This document shows, one piece after another, positions 9,548 to 38,143 of a DNA stretch of 38,691 nucleotides (position 1 is the stretch's first letter; every line of letters begins with the position of its first letter). Origin of the DNA: Patescibacteria group bacterium (GTDB lineage Bacteria; Patescibacteriota; Minisyncoccia; Phycocordibacterales; VMEP01); the NCBI GenBank assembly GCA_038065675.1, contig JBBTQM010000025.1, forward strand, positions 1 to 38,691. The letters run 5' to 3'. The position numbers were made by a program, and so were the translations under genes. The notes beneath the pieces were generated by a model. That model was not told the origin of the DNA, ran no database searches, and saw nothing but the letters and a program-made list of their open reading frames with translations.

Positions 9548-9575
9548 CCGATAATGTAATCTCCCAAAAATCACC

Positions 9576-9602
9576 CGACAAAGCGGGTGATTTTTGATTT
9601 AA
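9576..9602 (+). terminator. Rho-independent terminator (aaaatcacccg-acaaa-gcgggtgattttt)
   Basis: Perfect hairpin plus T-run just after the 8591-9547 stop. Confidence 0.7.
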
Positions 9603-9618
9603 CTTTTTGACGGTGTAT

Positions 9619-9656
9619 TTTAAAAATAGCTCGAACTGTATTCCCTCGCCGCGCAC
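9619..9656 (+). repeat. 38-bp direct repeat, copy A (ttaaaaatagctcgaactgtattccctcgccgcgcaca)
   Basis: Identical copy at 10599-10636. Flanking ~100 bp is also homologous with indels, including tttggcggcaaattct at 9797-9812 and 10697-10712. Confidence 0.8.
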
Positions 9657-9754
9657 AGCGCGGCTCGGAATGGGCGGGCGGGCAAAATGAATTAAAAAGC
9701 CGAGAGCATTAACAATTTCAAGTTTTTATTGAGTTAAGTATAACTCAATTCAGT

Positions 9755-9794
9755 AGATTTTTCAATTAAAAAGAATTGAAAAATCTACTGGCTT
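9755..9794. repeat. Perfect 17-bp inverted repeat with 6-nt spacer (cagtagatttttcaatt aaaaag aattgaaaaatctactg)
   Basis: Read directly from the sequence. Lies inside the duplicated junction segment upstream of the GC-rich cassette. Confidence 0.7.
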
Positions 9795-9827
9795 TGGCGG
9801 CAAATTCTCGCTCTTTGAATTTATAAA

Positions 9828-9880
9828 AACAAAAAACCTCGCACTCGACGAAGCACGAGGCTTTCTGTCGGTGCGAGGCG
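9828..9880 (-). terminator. Minus-strand terminator for the 9888-10412 gene
   Basis: The reverse complement gives cctcgcac...gtgcgagg hairpins followed by tttttt. Confidence 0.5.
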
Positions 9881-9887
9881 TGGCCGT

Positions 9888-10412
9888 TCAGGCCGGTTCG
9901 AGAGATGGGTACAGCCCGGGCTTTTTCAGATCGATCTGCTCGAGCTCCTCGCGTGTGGCAACGACGAGTGCGGCTTGCCGCGAGTAGTTCTTCTTGGAGA
10001 GCCAGAACGTGTAGCGCAACGGCATACCTTCGAGAATGAGCCCCGGGCGAGTGACCTGGGAACGGTCCCAGCCACCGAACATCCCGTCCGAATTGAACGG
10101 GTCGTCGGTACGAGTCGGATCGAAGTCGCCGTAGTGGATGCTGAAGCTCAGCTCACTTCCCATCACATGGAGAATCTGGTCGAGGTGGGTCGTGCCGTTG
10201 CAGCTCTCCATGCTACCGACACCGTGTCCGGCAGCACTGATCTCGTCAGCGGTGTACCCTTCGCGATCTGCCACGAGTGAGAGACAGACTTCTTTCGTCA
10301 GCTCCTCGGACGACTCGATGAGGAATGCCAGCACTCGCTTTGAGAGTTCGGTTCCGTTCTTGGCATTGAAGATCATGTACCTCAACGCCGATATCTGCTT
10401 GGATGTAAACAT
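9888..10412 (-). CDS. Hypothetical protein; markedly GC-rich, likely horizontally acquired single-gene cassette
   Basis: 174-aa ORF with GC far above surrounding DNA. Own terminator. Bracketed by 38-bp direct repeats and a duplicated fragment of the neighbouring HIT gene 3' end. Confidence 0.55.
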   Translation of the reverse strand: MFTSKQISALRYMIFNAKNGTELSKRVLAFLIESSEELTKEVCLSLVADREGYTADEISAAGHGVGSMESCNGTTHLDQILHVMGSELSFSIHYGDFDPTRTDDPFNSDGMFGGWDRSQVTRPGLILEGMPLRYTFWLSKKNYSRQAALVVATREELEQIDLKKPGLYPSLEPA

Positions 10413-10598
10413 CTGAAGACCTCCCTTTCAATGTGCTATTTAACCAAGACACCATGTCCCAGTTTCATCGAATATCGCACGTCTAACTAAAAAGGTCAAG
10501 AAGCGGCATTTAGCCGCTTCTTGGAAAAAAAATTGATGAAAAAATTTCTTTTGCCCTTACAAGATATGGTTCGAGCAGACGTTTTTGGCGGAGATATA

Positions 10599-10636
10599 TT
10601 AAAAATAGCTCGAACTGTATTCCCTCGCCGCGCACA
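10599..10636 (+). repeat. 38-bp direct repeat, copy B
   Basis: Identical to 9619-9656. Confidence 0.8.
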
Positions 10637-10679
10637 CTGGCAATTTTAAGTTTTTAGCGGGTAAAGCCCGCTAGCGAAA

Positions 10680-11207
10680 TCATAACTGATTTTGTTCTTT
10701 GGCGGCAAATTCTTTCTGAAAATACTTTTTCATTTTTTCCATTGCTTCATCCACTTTTTTCAAATTTTCTGGCGTCTTCATGTGCTCTCGGGCATACTCC
10801 ATAATCGGCCTAACTGATTGGATTTTTCTTCCGAATTTTTCCATAAGCCAATCATGGCGAGGAAACATCCAAATATGAAAGTGGTGCGAGGTGTCTTCCT
10901 CTTGTATTAGATAAATAACTTGAACATTGCACGCGTGTCTCATCGTCTGCCGTAAACGGCACAAAAATTCTATGAAATCAGTTCTCTCGTCTGCCGTAAA
11001 TTCATCTACGCTTTGCAAATGCCGCTTGGAAGCGAGAATAACAAAGCCAGGGATAGGGATTTCATAATCTTGGTGTGCGTCAAAATATTGCGTTGATGCG
11101 ATAGAACCGCCTGGACTTTCTACTTCGCCTTTTTGAATAGCACAACCAAGGCAACCGAGCTGCTTCTTTTTTCCTTTGATATCAATAATTTCTTTTTTCT
11201 CGTCCAT
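10680..11207 (-). CDS. HIT-family (histidine triad) hydrolase
   Basis: CLGCAIQKGE...PGFVILASKRH...IQEEDTSHHFHIWMFPR parallels the HIT pattern (C..C..I..GE...P.H.LViPk.H...HLHLHviPR). Start chosen at the internal Met to avoid overlap with the upstream gene. Confidence 0.7.
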   Translation of the reverse strand: MDEKKEIIDIKGKKKQLGCLGCAIQKGEVESPGGSIASTQYFDAHQDYEIPIPGFVILASKRHLQSVDEFTADERTDFIEFLCRLRQTMRHACNVQVIYLIQEEDTSHHFHIWMFPRHDWLMEKFGRKIQSVRPIMEYAREHMKTPENLKKVDEAMEKMKKYFQKEFAAKEQNQL

Positions 11208-11208
11208 A

Positions 11209-11616
11209 TTATTTTTTCGTTTTGATGATAAGTTCTTTATACCCTGTACTTTCGTCAAACTCCCTACCAAATTCCAAATCCTCTATTTCACCAATAGCAA
11301 TTTCGGCGGTTACGCCGACTATGGAACCATCTTTGAGATGGCCGCCAAAAGTTTTTCCGTCTTCGTCCGAAAGGCAAACGTGAATATGGCTATTACCCGT
11401 TTCAACCGTGCCGACAAGCGATACAATTTCAAAACTTCCTTCCCACGTTTTTATTACCCTTGCGTTTGCCATTCGCAAAATTGCTTTCGTGAGATTACCT
11501 ACGCAAGTAAGAATTATGCCCGCGCGAATGTTGTGCTCACGAACATACTTGTCAATTTCCTCTCTAAAATTTTGGCCCGGACGAAGCCGGAAAACGTGCG
11601 TTTTCATAAAATTCAT
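11209..11616 (-). CDS. PPC/DUF296-domain protein (predicted DNA-binding protein)
   Basis: FEIVSLVGTV....HIHVCLSDEDGKTFGGHLKDGSIVGVTAEIAI matches the PCC-domain consensus (fEIlSlsGt...HlH.sls...G...GGHL..G..V..T.EVvi). Confidence 0.7.
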   Translation of the reverse strand: MNFMKTHVFRLRPGQNFREEIDKYVREHNIRAGIILTCVGNLTKAILRMANARVIKTWEGSFEIVSLVGTVETGNSHIHVCLSDEDGKTFGGHLKDGSIVGVTAEIAIGEIEDLEFGREFDESTGYKELIIKTKK

Positions 11617-11645
11617 CTCAACAATTTTTCAATTTCCTATAACTG

Positions 11646-11708
11646 GCGGAGATGGGAGTCTGCCTGCCGCCTGCCTGTGCGTACACGCAGACAGGGCAGG
11701 CAGGGATT
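11646..11708. repeat. Copy of the tRNA-Ser 3' end core (cggagatggga), followed by a GC-rich CCTGCC/GGCAGG hairpin
   Basis: The 11-mer cggagatggga at 11648-11658 is identical to the 3' end of tRNA-Ser (13879-13889) and to 13722-13732. Confidence 0.5.
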
Positions 11709-11770
11709 CGGTCACGCATAAAATTCTACTGTCTACTGAATTTTTGCGCGACCCCGAGTCGCGCCGCCGC

Positions 11771-11855
11771 GCTCCGTCTTTCGAATCCTCCATCGCCGAC
11801 CACGACGCTTTTCCAAAATACCCATTCAGGATATTTTGAAAAATCGTAACGGAGA
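11771..11855 (+). repeat. 85-bp direct repeat, copy 1
   Basis: 83/85 identical to 13643-13727, covering the core ttcgaatcctccatcgccgaccacgacgcttttccaaaatacccattcaggatattttgaaaaatcgtaacggaga. Confidence 0.85.
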
Positions 11856-11957
11856 GATTATAACCTTTGCGCGAACTTTTTTCGAGGGGCGATGACCCGC
11901 CCCGCCGCGCGTACCACTTTGATGTCAAAGGAATTTAAATCATGGTAAAATAGCAAG

Positions 11958-13484
11958 ATGAAATACAAAAAAGGTTTTGTTGCTAATCTGCTAATTTTAG
12001 TAGTTTCGGGTATAGTAGTTTTAAGTGCAGGTTTCTCCTTTCTATATTATCAGAGTAAAAAAGATTCTATACGCCAAGGAAAAGCTATTGACGAGTTAAT
12101 TGTAAAATTAAATACTGGACAAAAAATAGAAGAAAATCAGATCAATAAGACCAACGAGAACTTGGGTCGTACCCCAGTTTCACCAACAAAAATAATACCC
12201 ACCAATTCAGTTTCAAACTCACAGCAAGGAAAAGTTATTGACAAACCAGTTACAAATCAACCTGTACCAACACCGGTAAAGACTACAAATTTACAAAATC
12301 AGTCAATCACATTTCAGCTACAGAGTGAGTTTTTAAAGAATGAGCCCATAGCTCAACAAATAGCGTCAGGGCAATTGAAGCAATATGATATAAGAAAATA
12401 TAATTTCGTATTTCTATCCATAAATAATGCGAATAATGACGATTTCGCTTATCGTTTTATTAATGCAATAAAAATGACAGGACAAGTCGTAGGCTCGGTC
12501 TCGAGTCACATAAGTGGTCAGTATGTTTCAGAGGATCTGCTCAACAGGTTTCAGTTGTTTTGGGGTTTTTCTGCTTCTCCCTATATAGAGGCTCTTGTCC
12601 TAAAAAAAGTTGATTCTATTCTTGCATCTAGGGAAGCTGAAGAAAAAAATGTTGCTATAAGTTTCCCGCTCTATAAATACTTTATCGAGGCACCAAAAAA
12701 CCAAGAAAGTAAGACGCACATTGCTTATTTACTAGCGCAAACCTTCAGGGAACTTCCTAGTAGTCTAGTTGTATGGAGCGAACAAAATTTTAAGAACTAT
12801 CTCTCACGACAAAGGACAACTGCTTTTTTAGACGATGGTTATGCTAATAATTATAAATTTTGTGAAATTTTTATATATGAAACCATAGGAGATATGTGCA
12901 CAGTGACAACAGCTTCCGAGAAGGTTGTTGATGATTTTATGACAGCAGATGTTAATCTTCATGAGTATGCACATTATCTTGATAGAAATTTACATTCTAG
13001 AAATCCAAACACCTCTCAGGGATTAATTGATACGACCGAATTTTATAGTATCAGTTACGACATCAATCAGAGAGATTTAAGACCAGGAATATGGCCATCG
13101 TATAAATTAAGAAATCCAAATAACAAGAGAAATGAGTTTGTAAGCATATATGCGATGGGGTGGGGTACCGATGACTATGGATACAAAAGCTCGGGTGAGG
13201 ATTTTGCTGAATCATTTGGAATGTACGTAACCCAAGGAAAAGCGTTTAGGGCGTTAACGATAAATAATTCAGTCCTAAAACAAAAATACGACTGGTTAAA
13301 ACAAAATGTTTTTGGTAACGTGGAATATCAGAGTGGTGCCTCAGACGCAATCGAACATACCAAAAATTCTTTTGATGCAATAACAGTTGCAACGGGGGTA
13401 TTTAATGTAAATGGTATTACAGAATCATATCCTAATTTTGTATGGAACTATCAATTTCTGAATGGCTCAATGGTTACAAAATAA
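11958..13484 (+). CDS. Membrane-anchored, secreted HExxH zinc-metallopeptidase-like protein; very AT-rich
   Basis: 508 aa. N-terminal TM/signal anchor. Low-complexity Q/N/T/P linker. HEYAH motif (NLHEYAHYLD). Downstream acidic GEDFAESFGMYV. Confidence 0.55.
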   Translation: MKYKKGFVANLLILVVSGIVVLSAGFSFLYYQSKKDSIRQGKAIDELIVKLNTGQKIEENQINKTNENLGRTPVSPTKIIPTNSVSNSQQGKVIDKPVTNQPVPTPVKTTNLQNQSITFQLQSEFLKNEPIAQQIASGQLKQYDIRKYNFVFLSINNANNDDFAYRFINAIKMTGQVVGSVSSHISGQYVSEDLLNRFQLFWGFSASPYIEALVLKKVDSILASREAEEKNVAISFPLYKYFIEAPKNQESKTHIAYLLAQTFRELPSSLVVWSEQNFKNYLSRQRTTAFLDDGYANNYKFCEIFIYETIGDMCTVTTASEKVVDDFMTADVNLHEYAHYLDRNLHSRNPNTSQGLIDTTEFYSISYDINQRDLRPGIWPSYKLRNPNNKRNEFVSIYAMGWGTDDYGYKSSGEDFAESFGMYVTQGKAFRALTINNSVLKQKYDWLKQNVFGNVEYQSGASDAIEHTKNSFDAITVATGVFNVNGITESYPNFVWNYQFLNGSMVTK

Positions 13485-13642
13485 ATTATCTTAATTTATT
13501 CTAGAATAACTGCATATACCCCATAAGACGGTCAGATTATGTACCGTATAATTATTTATTTTTAATGCGCTAGCGCCAGACAATAAACTTTGCGCGCGTC
13601 CCCTGAAAAAAATTCTAAAAAGGAAAGGGAAATTTCTGCTCG

Positions 13643-13744
13643 GCTCCGCCCTTCGAATCCTCCATCGCCGACCACGACGCTTTTCCAAAATACCCATTCA
13701 GGATATTTTGAAAAATCGTAACGGAGATGGGAGGATTCGAAGCT
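13643..13744 (+). repeat. 85-bp direct repeat, copy 2, extended by a 17-nt copy of the tRNA-Ser 3' end (att-like)
   Basis: Copy 2 runs on into ggagatgggaggattcgaa, which matches the tRNA-Ser 3' end (ggagatgggaggatttgaa) with one mismatch. A third, ~65% identical copy lies at 13808-13878, abutting the tRNA. Confidence 0.8.
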
Positions 13745-13878
13745 TACAGCTTCAGTACAGGTTTTTGATATTTTGCTTCGCAATGCTCGCAAAATATCTA
13801 AAGAACCTTTTCGAATCCTCCCCATTCGCGTAATGATAAATTGCGCAGAAGCCATTCAGGCTTCCTTTCAAATCATTA

Positions 13879-13965
13879 CGGAGATGGGAGGATTTGAACC
13901 TCCGATAAGGTTACCCCTATGCCACATTTCGAGTGTGGTGCCTTCAACCACTCAGCCACATCTCC
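13879..13965 (-). tRNA. tRNA-Ser (anticodon CGA), long variable arm
   Basis: Reverse complement GGAGATGTGGCTGAGTGGTTGAAGGCACCACACTCGAAATGTGGCATAGGGGTAACCTTATCGGAGGTTCAAATCCTCCCATCTCCG. Anticodon loop CTCGAAA. Confidence 0.8.
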
Positions 13966-14167
13966 TCGTTTAACTCGTCGTTGCGGCTGAGTGCCTCCTC
14001 GGCACCCCTATGGCCTGCCTCGCGCGCCGGCATCGGCCATTTCCGCCTCAAGGCGAAATCGGGATGAAATATGAAGCAGTTCATATTTCATAGCCACATC
14101 TCCAATTTAATGCTTAAAATACTAGCATTTTGAGAAAAAAATGCTATATTTCTTACTATTCTTCTTG

Positions 14168-14239
14168 GCCCTATCGTCTAACGGTTAGGACATGAGCTTT
14201 TCAAGCTCAGAATCGGGGTTCGATTCCCCGTAGGGTCAT
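14168..14239 (+). tRNA. tRNA-Glu (anticodon TTC)
   Basis: Acceptor GGCCCTA/TAGGGTC. Anticodon stem TGAGC/GCTCA with loop TTTTCAA. T-arm CGGGG-TTCGATT-CCCCG. Confidence 0.8.
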
Positions 14240-14378
14240 ACGTCGCAGGAAAGCAGGCAAACTGCTTTGCCTGCGGGCGACGTATGAAGCCGCAGACATA
14301 TTTCGCTAGCAAGCGAAATGGCGAGGCGGGGTCGCGAGCACTTACGTTTTCTGGCGTGCAAGAAACGCCAGAAAACTT
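14240..14378 (+). other. Cluster of three consecutive perfect hairpins downstream of tRNA-Glu
   Basis: 14240-14286 is a nested palindrome (tacgtcgc...gcaggcaaa-ctgc-tttgcctgc...gcgacgta). 14301-14321 is atttcgct-agca-agcgaaat. 14345-14375 is gttttctggcgt-gcaagaa-acgccagaaaac. Confidence 0.6.
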
Positions 14379-14424
14379 AGTGACTTGTGACCAGATAAAT
14401 CAGCAGGCGAAGCCCACAAATTAA

Positions 14425-15012
14425 ATGACCACTGACAACCTAAAATTCGAGATTGGATTTTGGCATCCGTTCGGGGATCATGCGGACGAAAAAGCCGAAG
14501 ACATCATAAAAAGAAAACAACAGGAAATAAAAAAAACAGGGTGGACACTTTGGTCTTTCCAACATAGAACCAAAGAAACTTTAGAACGATGGCTTAATGA
14601 AATAAAAGAAAAGGGGCCTTGTAATGTTTTGGTATTTTGCTCCAACGGCAAAGGAAGTAACACCAAGGGGACTCCACGGCACTGTAATTACTATCTTCCA
14701 ATCGGAGAAACAAATCCTAAAGCCATTCCAATAACAATAAAAGTCCCGCATCCCATGAAAAAAGGAACAGCGGGGTCTGCTTTTATCGTTAAAAATATTA
14801 AATACGCGCCTGCCCATGAAGAAATACAGGTGGAATGGTTTTATAGTGGTCAATCAAGGTGGCAAAAAGATAGAAGTTCTACTAGGGGAGAGCACCTTAT
14901 ACGACGGGACAGTTCGGGTAAACCCTTAAGGGAGTTCCGCGCTGTGCTTGAGCTTCAATCTCCTTATCTCGCCGAAGTTGGCGAAACAGAAATAGAAGAT
15001 CGTGACCAATAA
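14425..15012 (+). CDS. Hypothetical protein (no recognisable domain)
   Basis: 195-aa ORF in the accessory region between the tRNA cluster and the KAP NTPase. Confidence 0.5.
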   Translation: MTTDNLKFEIGFWHPFGDHADEKAEDIIKRKQQEIKKTGWTLWSFQHRTKETLERWLNEIKEKGPCNVLVFCSNGKGSNTKGTPRHCNYYLPIGETNPKAIPITIKVPHPMKKGTAGSAFIVKNIKYAPAHEEIQVEWFYSGQSRWQKDRSSTRGEHLIRRDSSGKPLREFRAVLELQSPYLAEVGETEIEDRDQ

Positions 15013-15069
15013 GATTAGAAGGCAAAGCCTACCTTGTGTCAATTTTTGGGAGGGTGTAAAGTTTGGGGT

Positions 15070-15594
15070 ATGAGACTTGTATTTCTCCTCTCAATTTTGT
15101 TTTTAAGCTTTCCCCCTTTGCTTTCGTATGCTCATCCAGGGCGTACCGACGTCTCCGGCTGTCATACATGCAGAACAAATTGTCCGAATTGGGGATTGGA
15201 TTACAGCGAATACCATTGCCATAACGCCAAGGCCTTGCCGCAGCCAATGGAACCAATTCGAAGTCATTATGGAGAAAGTGGAACTGGAACGACTGAACCA
15301 TGGCCGGAATATAAAAATACTCCAGTAGCACCGAAAAAACCTGTTGTTGCCCCAGTTCCCTCGATGACACTTTCCAGCATCACTTACTCTCTAGCAAAGG
15401 GCATGGAGAACAATCAGGTCATAAGGTTACAGCAGATTCTCGCCCGTTATCCTGAAATATACCCAGAGGGTTCAATAACGGGTTACTTTGGTCCTGCAAC
15501 CGAAAGAGCCGTCAAGCGTCTTCAAAAGAAATATAACCTGGAGCAAGTCGGTTCTACGGGGCCAAAAACTAGAGTATTATTAAATTCTTTGTGA
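15070..15594 (+). CDS. Secreted protein with N-terminal Cys/His-rich motif and C-terminal peptidoglycan-binding (PG_binding_1-like) domain
   Basis: Signal peptide MRLVFLLSILFLSFPPLLSYA. HPGRTDVSGCHTCRTNC...YHCH metal-binding-like motif. C-terminus LQQILARYPEIYPEGSITGYFGPATERAVKRLQKKYNLEQVGSTGPKT resembles PG_binding_1. Start set at the internal Met. Confidence 0.55.
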   Translation: MRLVFLLSILFLSFPPLLSYAHPGRTDVSGCHTCRTNCPNWGLDYSEYHCHNAKALPQPMEPIRSHYGESGTGTTEPWPEYKNTPVAPKKPVVAPVPSMTLSSITYSLAKGMENNQVIRLQQILARYPEIYPEGSITGYFGPATERAVKRLQKKYNLEQVGSTGPKTRVLLNSL

Positions 15595-15626
15595 CCACGT
15601 AAATTGAGTCGGAGTAAAATACCTGT

Positions 15627-17318
15627 GTGTCTATAAAACTAGTCAAGGAAGAAATAGGGCGATTTATTTCAGGTACGGAATCAGAAATTTTTTGCATTAG
15701 TGGTAAGTGGGGTGTAGGTAAGACCTACAGTTGGAACTATTTCTTAAAGAGTGCAAAAGATGCTGAAAGGATAGGTTTAAAGCGATATGCCTACGTATCT
15801 CTTTTTGGCCTAAAGTCTCTTAACGAACTGAAGTACGCATTATACGAAGCGACCAAACCAGTTGAAAAAATTGGCGAAGATCCAGAATGGGAAGATTTTG
15901 AATTAAAAAACACGGGCGAGACTTTTCTGAGGCGGACACGTTTAGTGATCTCTCGACTAAGTCAGTTGCCTATTGTTCAAGGCTATATAGGGCTGACTGA
16001 AAGCATTCTTTTTTACTTTGTCGGGAAGCAGCTGATTTGTATAGACGACCTAGAAAGAGCTGGGAATGGTTTGGATGTTATGGATGTTTTTGGTCTAATT
16101 TCTTTTTTGAAGGAGCAGCGCCATTGCAAGGTTGTCCTACTTCTCAACAAAGACGAGATAGATAAAGAACAGAGGGCTGTTTTTGACAAGCAATTTGAGA
16201 AAGTTATAGATGAGGACCTTCAATTTAGTCCAACCCCACAAGAAGCGGCTGATATAGTTTTTCCACAACCTGAGGGAATAAAGAAAGACCTTCACCGCCA
16301 CTGTTTAACTCTGGGGGTAATCAATATTCGCGTAATAAAAAAGATAGAGAAAATCGCCTTTAGGTTAGAGGAGATTCTTAAAGATAAATACGCAGATTTG
16401 CTATATCAAGCCATTCACTCATCAACTCTTTTTGCTTGGTCAAAATATCAAAAAGATAAAGAACCACCACCTTTTGACTTTCTAACAAATATAAGTCGGC
16501 TTCTTGGGCTTTTTCTCGATAAAGAGAAGGCAACCGCCGACGACCAAAGATGGAAAGCCCTAATGGCAGAATATAAATTTGGGAATGTAGATGATTTCGA
16601 TTTAGTTATTTATGACGCTGTTCAAAGTGGTATTTTCGACAAAGATGTTTTACTCGCAGCTGCTGAAAAACAGCGCCAGGGAGTCACGAAAAATAAGCAA
16701 GAACAGGTAATTCATGACACTTGGGATCTATATCACGGCTCTTTCGACGATAATGAAAGTGGCGTAATGGATCAAATTTTTAAAGTATCTTTAGAAAATA
16801 TTAAAGTGATTAGCCCATCTAACTTGGAGGGCACCATCAGTACCTTAAAGGAATTTGACCGAAAAAAAGAAGCGGCGGAACTCATTAAGAAATATATAGA
16901 TGAACGCGGGTCCGAAAAAGAACTTTTCGATCTTAAAAATGATCATTTTAGTCGGAATATTAAAGACCCCGACATTCTCCGTGAGTTCGGAAAGAAGAGA
17001 GCAGAATTCGTAGACAATAGGAACCCCGCAGATGTTCTAGAAACCATGGTGATGAACCGCGGGTGGAGTCTGGAAGACGAGGAACTTATTGATAAGTTAT
17101 CGACGGACGACTTTTATAAGATCTTCAAGGGCGAAAAAGGAGATCGAATGCATCGGGTAATTAGAGGCGCTTTGCAGTTAAATCGAAAAGAGTCAGATGC
17201 CAGCAAAGAACTAGGCTCTATTTCCGAAAGAGCCGTCAAGGCACTAGAGAAAATTGCTGGAGAAAGTCGACTGAACGCACGGAGGGTCGCGGCACAAGGA
17301 ATCAAGCTAAAAGACTAG
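15627..17318 (+). CDS. KAP-family P-loop NTPase
   Basis: N-terminal FCISGKWGVGKTYSWNYFL Walker A in the characteristic KAP context (GeWGsGKT). Walker B-like LICIDDLER. 563 aa. GTG start. Lower GC than core genes. Confidence 0.7.
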   Translation: MSIKLVKEEIGRFISGTESEIFCISGKWGVGKTYSWNYFLKSAKDAERIGLKRYAYVSLFGLKSLNELKYALYEATKPVEKIGEDPEWEDFELKNTGETFLRRTRLVISRLSQLPIVQGYIGLTESILFYFVGKQLICIDDLERAGNGLDVMDVFGLISFLKEQRHCKVVLLLNKDEIDKEQRAVFDKQFEKVIDEDLQFSPTPQEAADIVFPQPEGIKKDLHRHCLTLGVINIRVIKKIEKIAFRLEEILKDKYADLLYQAIHSSTLFAWSKYQKDKEPPPFDFLTNISRLLGLFLDKEKATADDQRWKALMAEYKFGNVDDFDLVIYDAVQSGIFDKDVLLAAAEKQRQGVTKNKQEQVIHDTWDLYHGSFDDNESGVMDQIFKVSLENIKVISPSNLEGTISTLKEFDRKKEAAELIKKYIDERGSEKELFDLKNDHFSRNIKDPDILREFGKKRAEFVDNRNPADVLETMVMNRGWSLEDEELIDKLSTDDFYKIFKGEKGDRMHRVIRGALQLNRKESDASKELGSISERAVKALEKIAGESRLNARRVAAQGIKLKD

Positions 17319-17327
17319 CTGGCCAAA

Positions 17328-17423
17328 ATGGTGCCGAGCGCCCGCACTTATGTCATTATGAGGATACTCGGCGCATTTTTAATGGCTATCGGCTTTCTCG
17401 CCATTACCGGCGTAATAGAATGA
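17328..17423 (+). CDS. Possible 31-aa membrane micro-protein (MVPSARTYVIMRILGAFLMAIGFLAITGVIE)
   Basis: Short ORF below the track cutoff. Single hydrophobic helix. Overlaps the next small ORF by ATGA. Confidence 0.25.
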   Translation: MVPSARTYVIMRILGAFLMAIGFLAITGVIE

Positions 17424-17569
17424 AATTCAATTTACCCAACCTCACCATCTTCCTCCTCTTCTTTGGCCTCGCCCTTATTGAAGCAATTCAAAAAGAAAAC
17501 TGGCTTGAAGCGGCCATTTTCCTCATTCTCGGAATAATGTTTCTCCGCGCCGATTTACTTAAAAAATAA
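17420..17569 (+). CDS. Possible 49-aa two-helix membrane micro-protein (MKFNLPNLTIFLLFFGLALIEAIQKENWLEAAIFLILGIMFLRADLLKK)
   Basis: Short ORF read from the sequence. Hydrophobic. Confidence 0.3.
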   Translation: MKFNLPNLTIFLLFFGLALIEAIQKENWLEAAIFLILGIMFLRADLLKK

Positions 17570-17588
17570 ATTATTTAATAATAAAACC

Positions 17589-18227
17589 ATGTCTAAAAAA
17601 ACATTAGGGGAGATTGAAGAAGAATTTGTACAATCGGCGCGCGTTTCGGGCCAAAAAACCAACAATCCGGTCGTGGTGGCCATAGTTGGCGTAACCGGCG
17701 TGGGCAACAGCACAATCGCCAGCGCTTTGGAGAAAAAACTTGGCTGGAGTGTTATTGAAAACAACAAAATCAGAGTTGCCCTCCGCGAGAAAGGGAGTGG
17801 TTTTACTCCGGAAACCACGGCTAAAATCGGGTATGCCATGCTCGGCAAAATTCTCCGCGCCGGCGGCAACGCCATTCTTGACTCTGACTTTGCCGACAAG
17901 AACAAGCGAAAAAAATTGGAGCGTTTCGCGAAAAATTTTCGGGCGCGGGTTATTTACCTGCGCTTGGTCTGCGACCGCGACACGATGATTGAGCGCATAA
18001 TACACGCCCGCTATAACTCTAAAACCGATATTTTCAAAAACGCCGTTATTGCCGTAAGGGAACACTCGCGCCGCCTGCCGTGGCATTATCGTTGGACCGA
18101 AAAAGGCGGCGGCCAGTTTTTGCTTAAAAAACTACCCGTAAAGTTCCTGGCGGAAATAGACACAACCGACCCGAGAAAATGGCCGAAAAAGCTGGGCGTA
18201 GTAGCTGAAAAACTGAAGAAAAATTAA
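17589..18227 (+). CDS. P-loop kinase-like ATP-binding protein (AAA_33/zeta-toxin-like fold)
   Basis: Walker A VAIVGVTGVGNSTIA near the N-terminus. 212 aa. Confidence 0.55.
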   Translation: MSKKTLGEIEEEFVQSARVSGQKTNNPVVVAIVGVTGVGNSTIASALEKKLGWSVIENNKIRVALREKGSGFTPETTAKIGYAMLGKILRAGGNAILDSDFADKNKRKKLERFAKNFRARVIYLRLVCDRDTMIERIIHARYNSKTDIFKNAVIAVREHSRRLPWHYRWTEKGGGQFLLKKLPVKFLAEIDTTDPRKWPKKLGVVAEKLKKN

Positions 18228-18285
18228 ATTGTGCAGAAATTGTTTGTTTACCTATGACAAAAACCAGCGCCGATTTGCTGAAGAA

Positions 18286-18537
18286 ATGAAATCTTTTTCG
18301 GAAGAAGTTTATTCTGTCGTCCGCAAAATCCCGCGCGGAAAAACTTTAACCTACAAGGAAGTCGCGAAAAAGGCGGGGAGACCCAAGGCCTACCGCGCGG
18401 TGGGAAATATTTTAAATAAAAATCACGACCCGAAAATCCCGTGCCACAGAGTCGTACGTTCCGACGGGAAAATCGGAGATTACAACAGGGGAATGCGCCT
18501 CAAGCTGGAACTATTGAAAAAAGAAGGTGCAGTCTGA
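18286..18537 (+). CDS. MGMT-family protein (methylated-DNA-protein-cysteine methyltransferase DNA-binding domain, stand-alone)
   Basis: Active-site motif PCHRVV and a helix-turn-helix wing (TYKEVAKKAGRPKAYRAVGN). Start set at the Met of MKSFSEEVYS; the upstream in-frame Met would create an atypical extension. Confidence 0.75.
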   Translation: MKSFSEEVYSVVRKIPRGKTLTYKEVAKKAGRPKAYRAVGNILNKNHDPKIPCHRVVRSDGKIGDYNRGMRLKLELLKKEGAV

Positions 18538-18602
18538 GTGTATTCTCTAATTCGCGCGAATAGTGGAATAATATTCATTCCAAGGGATGCCCTTGGAATT
18601 TT

Positions 18603-19526
18603 TTATTTGGCGTGGAGGTAGAGATAAAGGTCTTCAATGGCGCGTACGGCGTCGCCCGAGGCGATGTTGTTCTGGTGGTAACGGACATTTGTTGCGTCTC
18701 CCGCCGCCCAGATTCCGGGAGTGGAAGAGATTTGCGTCCACGGGTCTATTTTTATGCGCCCGTATTCATCAAGCTCTAAAATATCTTTTACGAAATCAGT
18801 GTTCGGAGTTTGTCCGATTTCAACAAAAACTCCGGTTACCGGAAGTTCTTTTTCTTCCCCCGTGCCTTTGTCGCGGTAAACAAGAGAACTTACCATTTTG
18901 TCGCCCTTTATTTCTATTACATCAACATTTTCAAGCGCTTTCATTCGCGGATTTTTCAGAACTTTTTCTACCGATACAGGGTCGGCCTTAAAGCCGCGGC
19001 TGTGATTCAAAAGTATGACGCTTTTGGTGTAGGCAAGAAGTTGAGCGGCGGTTTCAAACGCGGCGTTGCCCCCGCCGATAACGGCGACATCCTGCCCTTC
19101 AAAAATCGGCCCGTCGCAGGAAGCGCAATAAGTTATTCCCTTGTGTTCAAGGCGATTTGCCCCCGGTACGGCGAGTTTTTTTCTTCCCGAGCCCGCGGCA
19201 ACAAGGATTGCTTTCGTCACGTAGGAATTTCCGCTTGAAGTTGAAACGGAAAATCCGCCGCCATCTTTTTTTATTGAAACCACTTTTTCTCCTTCCTCAA
19301 TTGCCACCGAATCGCCGGCATAGGCCTTAAGATGCTCTTTCAATCGGGTTGCCAGATCAATTCCCGAAATGGAAACCGTGCCTATCCAGTTTTGTATGTC
19401 GTCCGATACGACAGACTGGCCGCCGAATTCATTCGCTATAAGGAGGGTTTTTAATTTTTTGCGCGCGGCGTAAATTCCGGCGGACGCGCCCGCGGGACCC
19501 CCGCCGATGATAATCAAATCAAACAT
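18603..19526 (-). CDS. trxB: Thioredoxin-disulfide reductase
   Basis: FAD motif IIIGGGPAGASAGIYAAR. Redox-active CASCDG. NAD(P)H motif AVIGGGNAA. Confidence 0.9.
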   Translation of the reverse strand: MFDLIIIGGGPAGASAGIYAARKKLKTLLIANEFGGQSVVSDDIQNWIGTVSISGIDLATRLKEHLKAYAGDSVAIEEGEKVVSIKKDGGGFSVSTSSGNSYVTKAILVAAGSGRKKLAVPGANRLEHKGITYCASCDGPIFEGQDVAVIGGGNAAFETAAQLLAYTKSVILLNHSRGFKADPVSVEKVLKNPRMKALENVDVIEIKGDKMVSSLVYRDKGTGEEKELPVTGVFVEIGQTPNTDFVKDILELDEYGRIKIDPWTQISSTPGIWAAGDATNVRYHQNNIASGDAVRAIEDLYLYLHAK

Positions 19527-22108: not shown

Positions 22109-22501
22109 TTATATGTCGAAAACCTTTCTAAATTTTTCTTCAGTTTTTTCCATTGTACTACCGTGTCGGTTTCCTTTCAAATGAACGAGGGCGTGAATAA
22201 AGAAAAAACCGACGAGCCTGCCGCCTTGGCGGTCGAAATCTTTTGCCGACTTTTTTATTTCCGGAACGCAGAGGAAAATTTCCCCGCTGTTTTTTGATAG
22301 GGGAAACGAGAGAACATTGGCCGGCTTATTTTTCCCGCGGTGCGCAAGGTTTAATTTTTTCGCTTTTTCGGGGGAAACGAAAACAACCGAAAGCTCGTAT
22401 TTTTCTCCGAGAATCGCGTTTTTCAGTTTCAAAAAAGGCAAGCGGGGAAGCTTGCCTTTCACAGTATTCGTGATTGAGAGATTGGCAGTAGTCTTGACCA
22501 T
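22109..22501 (-). CDS. ybeY: rRNA maturation RNase YbeY
   Basis: Metal-binding motif HALVHLKGNRHG (HxxxHLxGxxH). Confidence 0.7.
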   Translation of the reverse strand: MVKTTANLSITNTVKGKLPRLPFLKLKNAILGEKYELSVVFVSPEKAKKLNLAHRGKNKPANVLSFPLSKNSGEIFLCVPEIKKSAKDFDRQGGRLVGFFFIHALVHLKGNRHGSTMEKTEEKFRKVFDI

Positions 22502-22508
22502 GCTGGCC

Positions 22509-22757
22509 CTAGCGGCGGCGCCCTTTTTTCGTTTGCGGGAGTTTGCCGAGTTTTCTTAAGCGTTCGTATTCTTTGCGGCGGCCGATGACCTTAAGGGCGC
22601 CTTTTTTGCGCTTGAATTTTGAGAGCGGGCGGTCGCTGTAGCGCATGGAGCGCACACGCGGAAGAACGCCGGATTCCTGGACGCGCCGCGTAAAGCGGCG
22701 CAGGAGCCCCAAAGCATTTTCGTTCCCCGACTTTCTTACTTCTACGTTTACGTTCAT
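22509..22757 (-). CDS. rpsU: 30S ribosomal protein bS21
   Basis: MNVNVEVRKSGNENALGLLRRFTRRVQESGVL...RKKGAL matches the bS21 pattern. The longer ORF in the track is an N-terminal over-extension. Confidence 0.75.
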   Translation of the reverse strand: MNVNVEVRKSGNENALGLLRRFTRRVQESGVLPRVRSMRYSDRPLSKFKRKKGALKVIGRRKEYERLRKLGKLPQTKKGRRR

Positions 22758-22851
22758 AATTGCAACAAACCTTATCACGATAAGGTTTTTTTGGCAAACA
22801 AAAAGCCGCCTGGAATTACAGGCGGCCGGCACTCTTTCTCCATCTTTCACG

Positions 22852-23190
22852 TCACCGAAGGGCATACGGAGATACATCGGACAGCATGACCTTGAGGTGG
22901 CCGTTTCCCGCCCTCTTTTTCAGTTCGGAAAACCGAACGACGTGAAGAAGGCTTTCATTGTGGCCGTATGCGTTCAGTTGTCCAAGATACCCCGTGGCCT
23001 CGAGGAGTTCCGGAGATGGTTCTTTTGGTTCTCCTTTTTCCCCCTGGATCACCAAATCAAGGGGGATATTATTGTTAAGAGCGTTCCCGATGATTTTCTC
23101 TAGGCGCCTTGCCGAAGCAAGTTTAGCCTTTTTGACTCTTCTCTCAAAGGCGGTAAATTCCGCCTCCGTTCTCCCACTTTTAGTGCGCAT
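22852..23190 (-). CDS. Hypothetical protein between hisS and rpsU
   Basis: 112-aa ORF co-oriented with flanking genes. No motif recognised. Confidence 0.35.
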   Translation of the reverse strand: MRTKSGRTEAEFTAFERRVKKAKLASARRLEKIIGNALNNNIPLDLVIQGEKGEPKEPSPELLEATGYLGQLNAYGHNESLLHVVRFSELKKRAGNGHLKVMLSDVSPYALR

Positions 23191-23324
23191 ACCGCTCTCC
23201 TTAAAAGGACTTATACTTTAATATTTAAACTTATATTACTAAAAAAGTCAAGCTTTGAAGATTTAGCCACATAGTAGCCACATAGGAAGTTCCTATGTGG
23301 CTGCGAAGATGCTTTTTGGTTAGC

Positions 23325-24632
23325 TTACTTAAGTTCCTTCAGATATTCCAGCAGGTCTTTTATGGAGACGGTGTCCTGAGAGCGGTTCATCATGTTGCGC
23401 ACTATCACCGTTCCTTCCACCGCTTCTTTCTGCCCGAAAATTATTGAATAGGGAACCCCCATTTTTTCCGCGGTTGCGAGCTGGGCGCCAAGGCTATCTT
23501 TTGAGAGCGACTGGGCGATAGGCACGCGCGCCTTGCGGAGAATTTCTATAATGGCGAGACTTTTTAATTTTGCTTCAAACCCGAGCTGGATAAAACAGAC
23601 TTTCGGTTTTTTCAAAATGCGCGGGGTGAGTTTTTTGTGGTCTGGCGAAAGAATCACACGGTCTACTCCAATCGTGCATCCGACTGCGGGGATATCTTTC
23701 TTGCTCCCGAGAGCGCGCGCCAGATAGTCGTACCTCCCTCCGCCGGCTATGGCGAGCGGCTCTTTTGCTACCTCGCCTTCGGCCGGTTCCTGCAATGTTT
23801 CTTTTATTTCAAACACCGTTCTGGTGTAATAATCAAGGCCGCGGACGAGAGTTTTGTCTATGTGGTACGGAATATGCATTTCTTCCAGATATTCAAGCAC
23901 TTCTTTGAAATGTGATTTACAGGCGGAACATAGATATGCCACGGAATCGGGCGCGCCTTCTTTGAAGGTAACGCATTTTTCGTTTTTACAATCAAGCAGG
24001 CGGAGTGGGTTTTCTTTCAGGCGCTCCTTGCAGTTCGCGCAAATTTCTTCGGTGTGTTTGCGGTAATATCCCTGCAATTCTTTTATGTAACGCGGGCGGC
24101 ATTCTTTATCGCCGATTGAATTTATGACAATGGTTACATTTTTAAATCCGCTTTCCTCAAGTATGGTGACAATCGTTCTTATGATGACGGCATCGGCTAT
24201 GCTTTTCTCGGTGCCCAGCATTTCCAACCCGAATTGCCTGAATTCTCGAAAGCGGCCGCGCTGGGGGTTGTCGTGGCGGAAGAACGGGCCGTAATAATAA
24301 AGAGAAACCGGCTGGGGGAGAGATTGCATCCCATGTTCAATATAAGCGCGCATTATGCCGGCGGTTCCTTCCGGGCGGAGTGCCAGCCTGTCGCCACCCT
24401 TGGTTCTTATTGAATACATTTCTTTTTCCACGATGTCGGTTCCGACCCCTACTCCCGTAGTGAAGACTTCCTCGTGTTCAATTATCGGAAGTTCAATCGG
24501 TTCGAATCCGTAGTAAATCGCTACTTCCTGCGCTTTTTCAAAAATTCCCTGATAGTCGTAATATTCCCCGTCACGAATATCGCGCATTCCTTTCGGTGAC
24601 TGCAGAGCTTCTTTTTTCATTGATTTTTTCAT
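23325..24632 (-). CDS. hisS: Histidine--tRNA ligase with a Cys4 zinc-ribbon-like insertion
   Basis: Class II aaRS motifs (RLALRPEGTAGIMRAY; GGGRYD). Insertion CANCKERLKENPLRLLDCKNEKC...CSACKSH. Confidence 0.9.
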   Translation of the reverse strand: MKKSMKKEALQSPKGMRDIRDGEYYDYQGIFEKAQEVAIYYGFEPIELPIIEHEEVFTTGVGVGTDIVEKEMYSIRTKGGDRLALRPEGTAGIMRAYIEHGMQSLPQPVSLYYYGPFFRHDNPQRGRFREFRQFGLEMLGTEKSIADAVIIRTIVTILEESGFKNVTIVINSIGDKECRPRYIKELQGYYRKHTEEICANCKERLKENPLRLLDCKNEKCVTFKEGAPDSVAYLCSACKSHFKEVLEYLEEMHIPYHIDKTLVRGLDYYTRTVFEIKETLQEPAEGEVAKEPLAIAGGGRYDYLARALGSKKDIPAVGCTIGVDRVILSPDHKKLTPRILKKPKVCFIQLGFEAKLKSLAIIEILRKARVPIAQSLSKDSLGAQLATAEKMGVPYSIIFGQKEAVEGTVIVRNMMNRSQDTVSIKDLLEYLKELK

Positions 24633-24638
24633 GTCGGA

Positions 24639-38139: not shown

Positions 38140-38143
38140 CCGG

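What the first reader, a model, noticed from the sequence alone, without database searches (positions are those of the whole stretch)
14425..18537. Low-GC accessory block next to the tRNA cluster: KAP-family NTPase plus uncharacterised neighbours
A 563-aa KAP-family P-loop NTPase (Walker A GKWGVGKTY at the extreme N-terminus) sits just downstream of tRNA-Ser, tRNA-Glu and a stack of hairpins. The KAP family includes the phage-exclusion protein PifA. It is flanked upstream by a 195-aa protein with no recognisable domain and by a secreted Cys/His-motif protein with a peptidoglycan-binding domain. Downstream lie two possible membrane micro-ORFs, a P-loop kinase-like protein and a stand-alone MGMT-like protein. 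The KAP gene is AT-richer than the core genes in the window. The composition and the tRNA-proximal position fit a defence or accessory islet whose components are not a described system.
Basis: partly seen in the sequence, partly recalled or inferred. Interest (0 to 1): 0.62.

Follow-up and report, generated by a model that had tools for sequence, protein, structure and literature searches.

The report
Lone KAP-like ATPase in variable slot
The block is not one defence system but a mixed set of unrelated genes in a changeable slot next to a tRNA gene of a groundwater Patescibacteria genome; only the 563-aa KAP-like ATPase looks like a mobile, stand-alone candidate anti-phage gene, and it belongs to a widespread family that is already catalogued but untested.

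Summary
The low-GC claim holds only for the YHYH/PG-binding gene, the KAP gene and the micro-ORFs. The 195-aa gene has low GC3 but ordinary codon usage. The kinase-like and MGMT genes are core-like.

FtsZ-anchored relatives keep the synteny GyrA…FtsA-FtsZ-TrxB. The stretch between TrxB and tRNA-Glu is empty in one relative and holds other genes in two. In a fourth genome with the same tRNA pair, a serine-recombinase island with restriction-type genes follows tRNA-Glu. So this is a real variable slot. MGMT recurs there at core-like identity and looks vertically inherited.

The KAP-like protein has intact Walker A and B motifs, an ORC/Cdc6/STAND-like fold and an all-helical C-terminal half, with no transmembrane insert. 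It matches phrog_4740 over its full length and PADLOC candidate PDC-S49 over the ATPase core only. It resembles PifA only at the P-loop. Homologues are patchy across phyla and occur on plasmids, phage-plasmids and temperate phages. None of 80 homologue loci carries the window's neighbours or any conserved partner.

Best reading: a solitary, horizontally acquired candidate defence NTPase, function inferred. It is a new member of a known kind and of modest interest.

The parts
13879..13965 (-). tRNA-Ser(cga). With tRNA-Glu it forms the conserved tRNA pair that marks one edge of the variable slot.
   Evidence: ARAGORN and Rfam tRNA at 59.7 bits. The same pair is present in relatives L169, L170 and L103/L175.
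14166..14239 (+). tRNA-Glu(ttc). Its 3' end faces the cargo block.
   Evidence: No second copy of its 3' end occurs in the window, so there is no att-like repeat.
14240..14424 (+). It is conserved in relative L170 as two diverged tandem copies and ends right at the first cargo gene.
   Evidence: Inverted repeats I15 (14236-14287) and I4 (14330-14392). Alignment with L170 and L169.
14425..15012 (+). 195-aa protein of a conserved family of unknown function. The sources that name an organism all say Patescibacteria. It is not linked to the KAP gene.
15034..15594 (+). Predicted secreted or membrane-anchored envelope protein with an N-terminal hydrophobic segment, a Cys/His-rich YHYH domain and a C-terminal PG_binding_1 domain.
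   Evidence: Hydropathy 2.03 at residues 15-33. Codon usage z -2.9.
15627..17318 (+). 563-aa soluble KAP-like P-loop NTPase. The N-terminal half is an ORC/Cdc6/STAND-like ATPase core (about residues 1-200). The C-terminal half is all-helical (about 204-556). It is a stand-alone candidate defence gene.
17328..17423 (+). 31-aa hydrophobic micro-ORF whose stop overlaps the start of the next ORF (ATGA).
   Evidence: Gene call in L001, sequence, hydropathy 2.23. It is not found beside any KAP homologue outside the same population.
17420..17569 (+). 49-aa micro-ORF with two hydrophobic segments.
   Evidence: Weak DUF6358 hit below cut-off. tblastn finds it only in L001-L003, the same population.
17589..18227 (+). 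212-aa AAA_33 / zeta-toxin-like P-loop kinase fold protein. Its Walker A reads GVTGVGNST, with Asn in place of the catalytic Lys. Its composition is core-like.
   Evidence: Pfam AAA_33 E 2e-12 and Zeta_toxin 22.6 bits. Sequence. GC3 0.563 and codon z +0.1. Absent from relatives L169-L171.
18229..18537 (+). Short stand-alone MGMT/Ogt C-terminal domain protein with a PCHRV active site. The true start is probably internal, because relatives have 82-86 aa. It is a vertically inherited neighbour of trxB, not cargo.
   Evidence: DNA_binding_1 E 2.5e-30 and TIGR00589. 69% identity in L169 and 75% in L171 beside TrxB.
18577..18599 (.). Bidirectional terminator-like hairpin between MGMT (+) and trxB (-). 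It closes the co-directional gene run.
18603..19526 (-). Thioredoxin reductase (TrxB). It is the first gene of the conserved syntenic block TrxB-FtsZ-FtsA-YbeY…HisRS…GyrA and marks the other edge of the slot.

Best explanation
**What the block is.** Coordinates 14425-18537 are the current content of a variable slot between tRNA-Glu and trxB. The genome is a groundwater Patescibacteria MAG (Hainich aquifer). The genes are co-directional and closely spaced, and a single terminator follows them. They are nevertheless evolutionarily independent.

**The one defence-type gene.** The 563-aa KAP-like NTPase is the only gene with a defence signature. It is a horizontally mobile, stand-alone gene of a widespread family (phrog_4740), which is a distant relative of the PADLOC candidate PDC-S49.

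**Proposed mechanism (inferred).** The protein most likely acts as a single-protein, nucleotide-driven switch.
- The N-terminal ORC/Cdc6/STAND-like ATPase binds and hydrolyses ATP through Walker A K32 and Walker B D140/D141.
- The conserved all-helical C-terminal half senses an invader cue, or carries out the block to invader replication.

**The neighbours are unrelated.**
- A 195-aa protein of a Patescibacteria-associated family with no known fold relative.
- A secreted YHYH plus peptidoglycan-binding envelope protein.
- Two coupled membrane micro-ORFs.
- A kinase-fold protein that lacks the P-loop lysine.
- A vertically inherited short MGMT.

**Shown:** gene anatomy, motifs, fold class, distribution, absence of a partner gene and variability of the slot.

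**Inferred:** the anti-phage or anti-MGE role and the sensor/switch mechanism.
For: **The slot is variable.**
- Relatives anchored on FtsZ (76-90% identity) keep GyrA…HisRS-YbeY-FtsA-FtsZ-TrxB.
- L170 goes from TrxB through 332 nt of hairpin modules straight to tRNA-Glu and tRNA-Ser.
- L169 has EVE, RarA, MGMT, DUF1428, a 147-aa gene and an HI0933-like gene in the slot.
- L171 has MGMT, an Asp protease, a 64-aa gene and another gene.
- L175 has a serine recombinase, EcoRI-type methylase, GmrSD/HNH, DUF2726 and SNase after the same tRNA pair.

**KAP motifs and fold.**
- Walker A and B are invariant in 30 homologues.

**Family placement.**
- The phrog_4740 match is full length at E 1e-59.
- All 30 family members hit PDC-S49, best E 2.5e-28.

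**Mobility and patchiness.**
- The scan confirmed relatives at 223 places in a collection of 185,579 species genomes; the 80 listed span Patescibacteria, Alpha- and Gammaproteobacteria, Acidobacteriota, Bacteroidota, Myxococcota, Cyanobacteria and others.
- Patescibacteria members fall in at least two clades of a rough NJ tree.
- 128 plasmid records carry a homologue.
- In E. coli it occurs in 28 of 5,426 complete genomes, always on plasmids of about 110 kb, one of which carries tail-fibre genes.
- In Burkholderia temperate phages it lies beside a RelE-like toxin gene and an HNH gene.
- Two of the four closest homologues lie within 7 kb of serine recombinase genes.

**Solitary gene.** No conserved neighbour appears in 80 loci, and none among the four closest homologues.

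**Composition.** KAP codon usage deviates by about 2 sd from the syntenic core.

[quoted passage not shown] Protection needs the Walker B motif and the C-terminal region (PMC13552941).
Against: - No member of this particular family has been tested. PDCs are candidates from a guilt-by-embedding screen, and most lack validation (PMC12988326).
- The PDC-S49 match covers only about a fifth of the profile, the ATPase core. The Pfam KAP match is marginal. Similarity to PifA is limited to 27 columns around the P-loop.
- The experimentally tested EF_KAP protein has transmembrane helices. This protein has none.
- No recognisable effector domain is present.
- The best fold matches are replication initiators and loaders. 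In the E. coli plasmid and the Burkholderia phage the gene lies near ParA-like, DnaB-like and replication genes. That also fits a replication or maintenance role for mobile elements.
- The window slot has no integrase and no att-like repeat.
- The compositional deviation is moderate.
Confidence: 0.55

Rival explanations
1. The KAP-like protein is a replication or maintenance accessory factor of mobile elements: an ORC/Cdc6-, TnsC- or MuB-like ATP-dependent DNA-binding switch. The chromosomal copy would be a remnant or domesticated copy, not an immune gene.
Confidence: 0.2
2. One reading: the 195-aa protein, the YHYH/PG-binding protein, KAP, the micro-ORFs, the kinase-like protein and MGMT form one undescribed multi-gene defence system or operon.
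For: The genes are co-directional with short gaps of 19-101 nt, with no strong internal terminator and a single terminator at 18577-18599. One 48%-identical KAP homologue (L027/L167) also has a PG_binding_1 protein directly upstream.
Against: None of 80 KAP loci has the 195-aa, kinase, MGMT or 49-aa genes. None of 80 loci of the 195-aa family has KAP, kinase or MGMT. The four closest KAP homologues (56-66% identity) all have different neighbours. MGMT is syntenic with TrxB in relatives that lack KAP. Composition splits the block. The shared PG-binding neighbour matches only over the generic domain, and the protein is otherwise different at 537 aa.
Confidence: 0.04
3. Nothing here is defence. 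The slot holds lineage-specific housekeeping or envelope genes shuffled by rearrangement in a fast-evolving reduced genome, and the KAP-like NTPase has an unknown cellular role.
For: The 195-aa gene has core-like codon usage (z -0.8) and the kinase-like gene is core-like in GC3 and codon usage. The 195-aa family is conserved across Patescibacteria, and in L143 it lies near homologues of window genes 22109-26159. No integrase or att site is present. No other PADLOC hit occurs in the variable region.
Against: The KAP family is very patchy across phyla, is present on plasmids and phages, and is absent from the three closest relatives at this site. A fourth genome with the same tRNA pair has a recombinase-borne island of restriction-type genes after tRNA-Glu.
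Confidence: 0.15

Closest known systems
phrog_4740 (PHROGs v4, unknown function) and its plasmid and phage members, e.g. E. coli p09EL50 WP_014962310.1 and Burkholderia phage vB_E253 XRX05814.1
   Same: The match is colinear and full length (residues 4-555 against profile 4-621 of 627, E 1e-59). Size is similar, about 560-580 aa. Identity to the phage and plasmid members is 27-28% over 98% of the length.
   Different: The family has no assigned function. The window copy is chromosomal in a Patescibacteria genome, with no phage or plasmid genes around it.
PADLOC-DB v2 candidate PDC-S49 (single-gene phage defence candidate)
   Same: All 30 family members match, with best E 2.5e-28 and window E 7e-18. 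Matches are colinear over the ATPase core (residues 24-79 and 132-210 against profile 29-80 and 139-220). Profile length is similar, about 620-630. Both are stand-alone genes.
   Different: Only about one fifth of the profile aligns, and the C-terminal helical half does not match. The window protein is therefore a distant relative, and PADLOC's own coverage filters might not call it (inference). PDC-S49 is unvalidated. The name occurs in none of the searchable papers, and most PDCs lack experimental support.
KAP P-loop NTPase defence proteins of Enterococcus and gut metagenomes (EF_KAP and three others; PMC13552941)
   Same: A KAP-type P-loop domain is followed by a C-terminal region of about 320-350 aa with no known domain. 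They are single genes, and related contexts lie near serine recombinases.
   Different: EF_KAP has two transmembrane helices, one of them inside the NTPase domain. The window protein has none, and its Walker A-B insert is short and variable.
PifA of plasmid F (T7 exclusion; archetypal prokaryotic KAP NTPase)
   Same: Both carry the G-x-W-G-x-GKT P-loop signature.
   Different: PifA scores 148.5 bits over the whole Pfam KAP_NTPase model, against 23.5 bits and 29 aligned residues here. A profile-sequence comparison aligns only 27 columns at 43% probability. PifA is 741 aa and is encoded directly downstream of the pifC repressor gene.
tRNA-linked genomic (defence) islands
   Same: The block abuts the 3' end of a tRNA gene and is absent or different in close relatives. 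A fourth genome with the same tRNA pair carries a serine-recombinase island with methylase, GmrSD/HNH, DUF2726 and SNase genes after tRNA-Glu.
   Different: The window has no integrase or recombinase and no duplicated tRNA 3' end flanking the block. The content is heterogeneous in composition and includes a vertically inherited gene, MGMT.

Membership tests
KAP family P-loop NTPase (Pfam PF07693; Aravind et al. 2004, cited from memory) | Walker A GxxGxGK[ST] and Walker B hhhhDD(L)xR | tested here: met
   GKWGVGKT at residues 26-33 and ICIDDLER at 137-144. G26, W28, G29, G31, K32, T33, D140, D141 and R144 are invariant in 30 homologues.
KAP family P-loop NTPase (Pfam PF07693) | Profile match over the NTPase domain above the gathering score | tested here: inconclusive
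   The whole-protein score is 23.5 bits against a cut-off of 20, but no stretch passes on its own and only residues 19-47 align. The E. coli member aligns over 12-254 at 25.3 bits, and the Burkholderia phage member falls below cut-off at 19.2 bits. Many homologues carry a precomputed PF07693 hit.
KAP family P-loop NTPase (Pfam PF07693) | Transmembrane helices inserted between Walker A and B (typical of many members, including EF_KAP) | tested here: not met
   The maximum 19-residue Kyte-Doolittle hydropathy is 1.43. The insert at residues 85-123 is short, variable and of low confidence in the model.
PifA-like phage exclusion proteins | Homology to PifA beyond the P-loop | tested here: not met
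   hhalign of the family profile against PifA aligns 27 columns at probability 43%.
PADLOC PDC-S49 | Significant match to the PDC-S49 HMMs with good coverage | tested here: inconclusive
   E is 7e-18, 3e-10 and 2e-7 for the three models, and 30 of 30 family members match. Only the ATPase core aligns, about 20% of the profile. PADLOC's own thresholds could not be applied.
PADLOC PDC-S49 | Single-gene organisation | tested here: met
   No conserved neighbour in 80 loci.
phrog_4740 | Full-length profile match | tested here: met
   E 9.7e-60, residues 4-555 against profile 4-621 of 627.
AAA+/STAND-class ATPase fold (ORC/Cdc6-like) | Structural similarity of the predicted core | tested here: met
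Anti-phage defence system (functional class) | Protection against phage when expressed | not testable with these tools
   Only a class-level precedent exists (PMC13552941). No data exist for this family.
tRNA-integrated genomic island | Adjacent to a tRNA 3' end and absent from close relatives | tested here: met
   The slot is empty in L170 and has different content in L169, L171 and L175.
tRNA-integrated genomic island | Integrase or recombinase, and a direct repeat of the tRNA 3' end | tested here: not met
   The tRNA-Glu 3' end has no second copy. No recombinase family appears among the window proteins scanned.
O6-alkylguanine-DNA alkyltransferase (MGMT/Ogt) | DNA_binding_1 domain with the PCHR active-site cysteine | tested here: met
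   E 2.5e-30, TIGR00589 at 85 bits, and the sequence IPCHRVV. The N-terminal Ogt domain is absent, as it is in the 82-86 aa orthologues of relatives.
Zeta-toxin / AAA_33 P-loop kinases | Intact Walker A lysine | tested here: not met
   Walker A reads GVTGVGNST, with Asn in place of Lys. The fold-family match is AAA_33 E 2e-12 and Zeta_toxin 22.6 bits. Conservation of the Asn in homologues was not tested.
PUA-like modified-base readers (YTH/EVE/ASCH), considered for the 195-aa protein | Significant fold or profile similarity | tested here: inconclusive

The most novel reading that the evidence does not exclude
The soluble KAP-like family (phrog_4740, distantly PDC-S49-like) could be a true single-protein immune sensor that works without any recognisable effector domain. 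For example, it might assemble on invader DNA in an ATP-dependent way, as ORC, TnsC and MuB do on their DNA targets, and so block replication. It would be shared between ultra-small Patescibacteria, free-living bacteria, plasmids and temperate phages. Separately, the 195-aa Patescibacteria-associated family has a confident model but no PDB fold relative, and it has invariant His, Cys and Glu residues. It could be a new enzyme that recurs in tRNA-adjacent accessory regions, beside Mrr-type, zeta-toxin-like and RelE-like genes in some genomes.
Probability: 0.2. Interest if true: 0.6.

Novelty: new member of a known kind. Interest (0 to 1): 0.35.

Why it matters
Few defence genes are known in Patescibacteria (CPR), which have tiny genomes and depend on host cells. 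A compact one-gene NTPase shared with phage-plasmids and temperate phages would add to that short list. It also offers a soluble member of the KAP class, without transmembrane segments, for mechanistic work.

The comparative result may be more useful. The tRNA-Ser/tRNA-Glu to trxB interval is a recurrent gain-and-loss site in this lineage. It can therefore serve as an anchor for finding further accessory or defence genes in CPR metagenomes.

The finding also shows that neighbours in a tight co-directional cluster need not form a system.

Tried and rejected
- **Multi-gene system.** Rejected by two reciprocal context surveys. 80 species loci with KAP and 80 metagenome loci with the 195-aa family were checked by tblastn for every window gene, and neighbours were clustered. 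No co-occurrence was found.
- **att-type repeat for the block.** The tRNA-Glu 3' end has no second copy in the window.
- **PDB sequence relatives.** None were found for the KAP family profile or the 195-aa family profile.
- **Longer members of the 195-aa family (258-673 aa).** No Pfam domain was found in the extra regions, so they gave no functional lead.
- **Literature.** 'PDC-S49' occurs in no searchable paper. The supplements of the KAP defence paper are not held, so EF_KAP could not be compared.
- **PifA kinship.** Tested directly and found to be limited to the P-loop.
- **Rfam.** Only the two tRNAs reach threshold in 11000-19000, and the hairpin module matches no family.
- **The PG-binding neighbour shared with L027/L167.** Judged coincidental, because only the generic domain matches and the protein is otherwise different.

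Full report
**1. Observation**

The window encodes a co-directional run of ORFs on the + strand:
- 14425-15012, 195 aa
- 15034-15594, 186 aa
- 15627-17318, 563 aa
- 17420-17569, 49 aa
- 17589-18227, 212 aa
- 18229-18537, 102 aa

A 31-aa hydrophobic ORF at 17328-17423 overlaps the start of the 49-aa ORF by ATGA.

Upstream lie tRNA-Ser(cga) at 13879-13965 (-) and tRNA-Glu(ttc) at 14166-14239 (+). Two hairpins follow at 14236-14287 and 14330-14392. A bidirectional terminator-like hairpin at 18577-18599 separates the run from the convergent trxB gene.

- PG_binding_1 plus a YHYH domain, and an N-terminal hydrophobic segment, in the 186-aa protein.
- An AAA_33 / zeta-toxin-like kinase fold in the 212-aa protein.
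- The MGMT DNA_binding_1 domain with a PCHRV active site in the last ORF.
- No Pfam, NCBIfam, PADLOC or PHROG hit for the 195-aa protein.

The source is a Patescibacteria MAG from the Hainich groundwater wells. The NCBI name of the protein is 'MAG: hypothetical protein AAB355_02575 [Patescibacteria group bacterium]', and an ENA contig name begins Hain_H43.

**2. Composition**

The 'low-GC block' is only partly real. Gene GC3 in the window averages 0.493 (sd 0.092).

| Gene | GC3 | Codon-usage z vs syntenic core |
|---|---|---|
| 195 aa | 0.357 | -0.8 |
| YHYH/PG-binding | 0.396 | -2.9 |
| KAP-like | 0.374 | -2.0 |
| micro-ORFs | not computed | -2.0 |
| kinase-like | 0.563 | +0.1 |
| MGMT | 0.515 | -0.2 |

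The strongest outlier in the window lies outside the finding. It is the 508-aa ORF at 11958-13484, with GC 0.349 and tetranucleotide z 3.3.

**3. The slot is variable**

FtsZ was used as an anchor, and three relatives were fetched.

| Locus | FtsZ identity | Content between TrxB and tRNA-Glu |
|---|---|---|
| L171 | 90% | MGMT (75% identity), Asp protease, a 64-aa gene and another gene; the contig ends before any tRNA |
| L169 | 77% | EVE, RarA/MgsA, MGMT (69% identity), DUF1428, a 147-aa gene, an HI0933-like flavoprotein |
| L170 | 76% | Nothing: 332 nt of hairpin modules lead straight to tRNA-Glu and tRNA-Ser, all inside the contig |

All three keep the order GyrA … HisRS-YbeY-FtsA-FtsZ-TrxB at 53-90% protein identity.

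A further Paceibacterota contig, L175, was found through the 195-aa family. It has the same tRNA-Ser/tRNA-Glu pair, followed by these genes:
- a large serine recombinase
- an EcoRI-type methylase
- a GmrSD_N/HNH protein
- DUF2726
- SNase
- YceG
- a 195-family gene, and further on a PG_binding_1 protein

The interval next to tRNA-Glu is therefore a recurrent gain-and-loss site that can hold restriction-type genes.

Three points count against a classical island:
- The window slot has no recombinase.
- The block is not flanked by a copy of the tRNA-Glu 3' end.
- MGMT recurs next to TrxB at an identity typical of core genes, so it looks resident rather than acquired.

The hairpin module after tRNA-Glu is itself conserved in L170, as two diverged tandem copies, and it ends exactly where the first cargo gene starts.

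**4. The genes are not a system**

- A scan of one genome per species found 223 places that encode a KAP-like homologue. In the 80 best loci, tblastn finds none of the 195-aa, kinase-like, MGMT or 49-aa genes nearby.
- Clustering of all flanking ORFs gives no recurring partner. The largest family is a generic short-chain dehydrogenase in 7 loci, and an integrase occurs in 3.
- Conversely, 80 metagenome loci with the 195-aa family contain no KAP, kinase or MGMT gene.
- Even the four closest KAP homologues (56-66% identity) have unrelated neighbours. P0010 (Adlerbacteria) has a resolvase and a LexA/UmuC-like pair. P0005 has a large serine recombinase and an SDH-type protease. P0008 has an unknown 367-aa gene and lipase and acyltransferase genes.
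- A 48%-identical homologue sits between a PG-binding surface protein gene and a NifU gene, after a run of Suf-type genes.

**5. The KAP-like protein**

*Motifs and structure.*
- Walker A (GKWGVGKT, residues 26-33) and Walker B (ICIDDLER, 137-144) are invariant across 30 homologues.
- The C-terminal half also has invariant residues: D322, D325, W366, F373, P397 and W480.
- The AF2 model has pLDDT 83.7.
- It shows an alpha/beta ATPase core, a low-confidence insert at 85-123 and an all-helical region at 204-556.
- The insert is variable and not hydrophobic enough for a membrane helix.

*Family placement.*
- The Pfam KAP_NTPase match is marginal, at 23.5 bits with only 29 residues aligned.
- PifA scores 148.5 bits over the full model.
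- A profile comparison with PifA aligns only 27 columns around the P-loop.
- The family matches phrog_4740 over its full length at E 1e-59.
- All 30 members match the PADLOC candidate PDC-S49 over the ATPase core, with best E 2.5e-28.
- No relative has a solved structure.

*Distribution.*
- At least 1040 proteins are homologous, at 37-71% identity over the full length.
- The species loci span Patescibacteria, many Alphaproteobacteria, Gammaproteobacteria, Acidobacteriota, Bacteroidota, Myxococcota, Cyanobacteria, Desulfobacterota, Nitrospinota and Latescibacterota.
- Patescibacteria members fall in at least two separate clades of a rough NJ tree.
- 128 plasmid records carry a homologue. The organism names are Klebsiella for 73, Escherichia for 21, and Legionella, Rhizobium and others for the rest.
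- In E. coli it occurs in 28 of 5,426 complete genomes, always on plasmids of about 110 kb. One of these carries tail-fibre genes, with a GNAT/DUF1778 pair next to the gene.
- Burkholderia temperate phages carry it beside a RelE-like toxin gene and an HNH gene.

**6. Interpretation**

The pattern has four parts: a stand-alone gene, patchy distribution across phyla, presence on mobile elements and a position in a variable slot. This is the usual signature of a single-gene defence or exclusion function.

[quoted passage not shown] Protection needs the Walker B motif and the C-terminal region, and it holds at high MOI (PMC13552941).

I therefore favour a nucleotide-driven switch in which the helical C-terminal half senses the invader or executes the block. 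This is inferred, not shown:
- PDCs are candidates from a guilt-by-embedding screen, and most are unvalidated (PMC12988326).
- 'PDC-S49' appears in no searchable paper.
- The tested EF_KAP protein has transmembrane helices, unlike this one.
- No effector domain is visible.

The main rival is a replication or maintenance role on mobile elements. The initiator/loader-like fold suggests it, as does proximity to ParA-like, DnaB-like and replication genes in the phage and the plasmid.

**7. The neighbours**

*195-aa family.*
- It has 94 close hits, and every source that names an organism says Patescibacteria. There are 335 representatives at 50% clustering.
- It has invariant His, Glu, Arg, Lys and Cys residues and a confident model with pLDDT 89.5.
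- Its surroundings vary. They include Mrr-like genes in 4 loci, and zeta-toxin-like, RelE-like and LexA-methylase-like genes in others. These labels are read from the sequences and were not profile-tested.
- In five of the closer loci it lies within about 1.3 kb downstream of tRNA-Ser genes.
- Its function remains open.

*Kinase-fold protein.* It has Asn where the P-loop lysine should be.

*MGMT.* It is a short, vertically inherited alkyltransferase domain.

**8. Verdict**

- The 'defence/accessory islet' reading is partly supported: the slot is variable, and one gene is a mobile candidate defence gene.
- The 'system' reading is not supported.
- The KAP-like gene is a new member of an already catalogued but uncharacterised family.
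- Interest is modest. It lies mainly in the soluble KAP-like architecture in a CPR genome and in the tRNA-Glu/trxB hot spot as an anchor for discovery.

Noticed in passing
window 11771-11855 and 13643-13727, bracketing ORF 11958-13484: An 85-nt direct repeat (98% identical) brackets the most AT-rich gene of the window. That gene encodes 508 aa, with GC 0.349 and GC3 0.283, an N-terminal membrane anchor and a HEYAH zinc-protease-like motif. At least the second repeat copy contains an imperfect inverted copy of the tRNA-Ser 3' end, and another copy of that end plus its flank lies at 13713-13744. This looks more like an att-flanked insertion than the block in the finding does, but no recombinase is present.
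   Followed up: partly
window 14240-14424; L170 12508-12839: The hairpin module downstream of tRNA-Glu is conserved in a relative with 76% FtsZ identity, as two diverged tandem copies. It shares the motifs AACTGCTT, GGGGTC and CTTGTGACCA. It matches no Rfam family.
   Followed up: partly
window 38144-38563 (+): A 139-aa NUDIX protein (GC3 0.371) fills the space between tRNA-Cys (38068-38141) and tRNA-Leu (38567-38649). It matches the PADLOC candidate PDC-S07 over nearly the whole profile, E 1.5e-14.
   Followed up: partly
window 17589-18227: The AAA_33 / zeta-toxin-like kinase-fold protein has Walker A GVTGVGNST, with Asn replacing the catalytic Lys. It may be a pseudo-kinase or a nucleotide-binding-only protein. 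Conservation in homologues was not checked.
   Followed up: no
L175 2941-8999 (Paceibacterota contig Ga0172379_10000841): Downstream of the same tRNA-Ser(cga)/tRNA-Glu(ttc) pair this genome carries a large serine recombinase, an EcoRI-type methylase, a GmrSD_N/HNH protein, DUF2726 and SNase genes. This looks like a recombinase-borne defence island in a CPR genome.
   Followed up: partly
L117, L119, L156, L162; L088, L090, L091; L087, L089, L100: Genes of the 195-aa family lie next to Mrr-like restriction genes in four metagenome loci. In three other loci they lie next to zeta-toxin-like and RelE-like genes. In five of the closer loci they lie within about 1.3 kb downstream of tRNA-Ser genes. 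The gene labels are read from the sequences and were not profile-tested.
   Followed up: partly
window 6873-13484: The region between tRNA-Ser and tRNA-Val/TsaD is also not shared with relative L169. There it is 1.7 kb, with a 172-aa gene, DUF1761 and MscL. In the window it is about 7 kb and includes a low-GC HTH protein (6873-7559), a pilin-like gene, a DUF5667 protein, a PCC-domain protein and a HIT-like protein.
   Followed up: partly
L169 13034-13471: In relative L169 the slot contains a stand-alone EVE (PUA-like) domain protein next to RarA and MGMT genes. The weak fold hints for the window's 195-aa protein point to the same superfamily, but no sequence similarity was detected.
   Followed up: no
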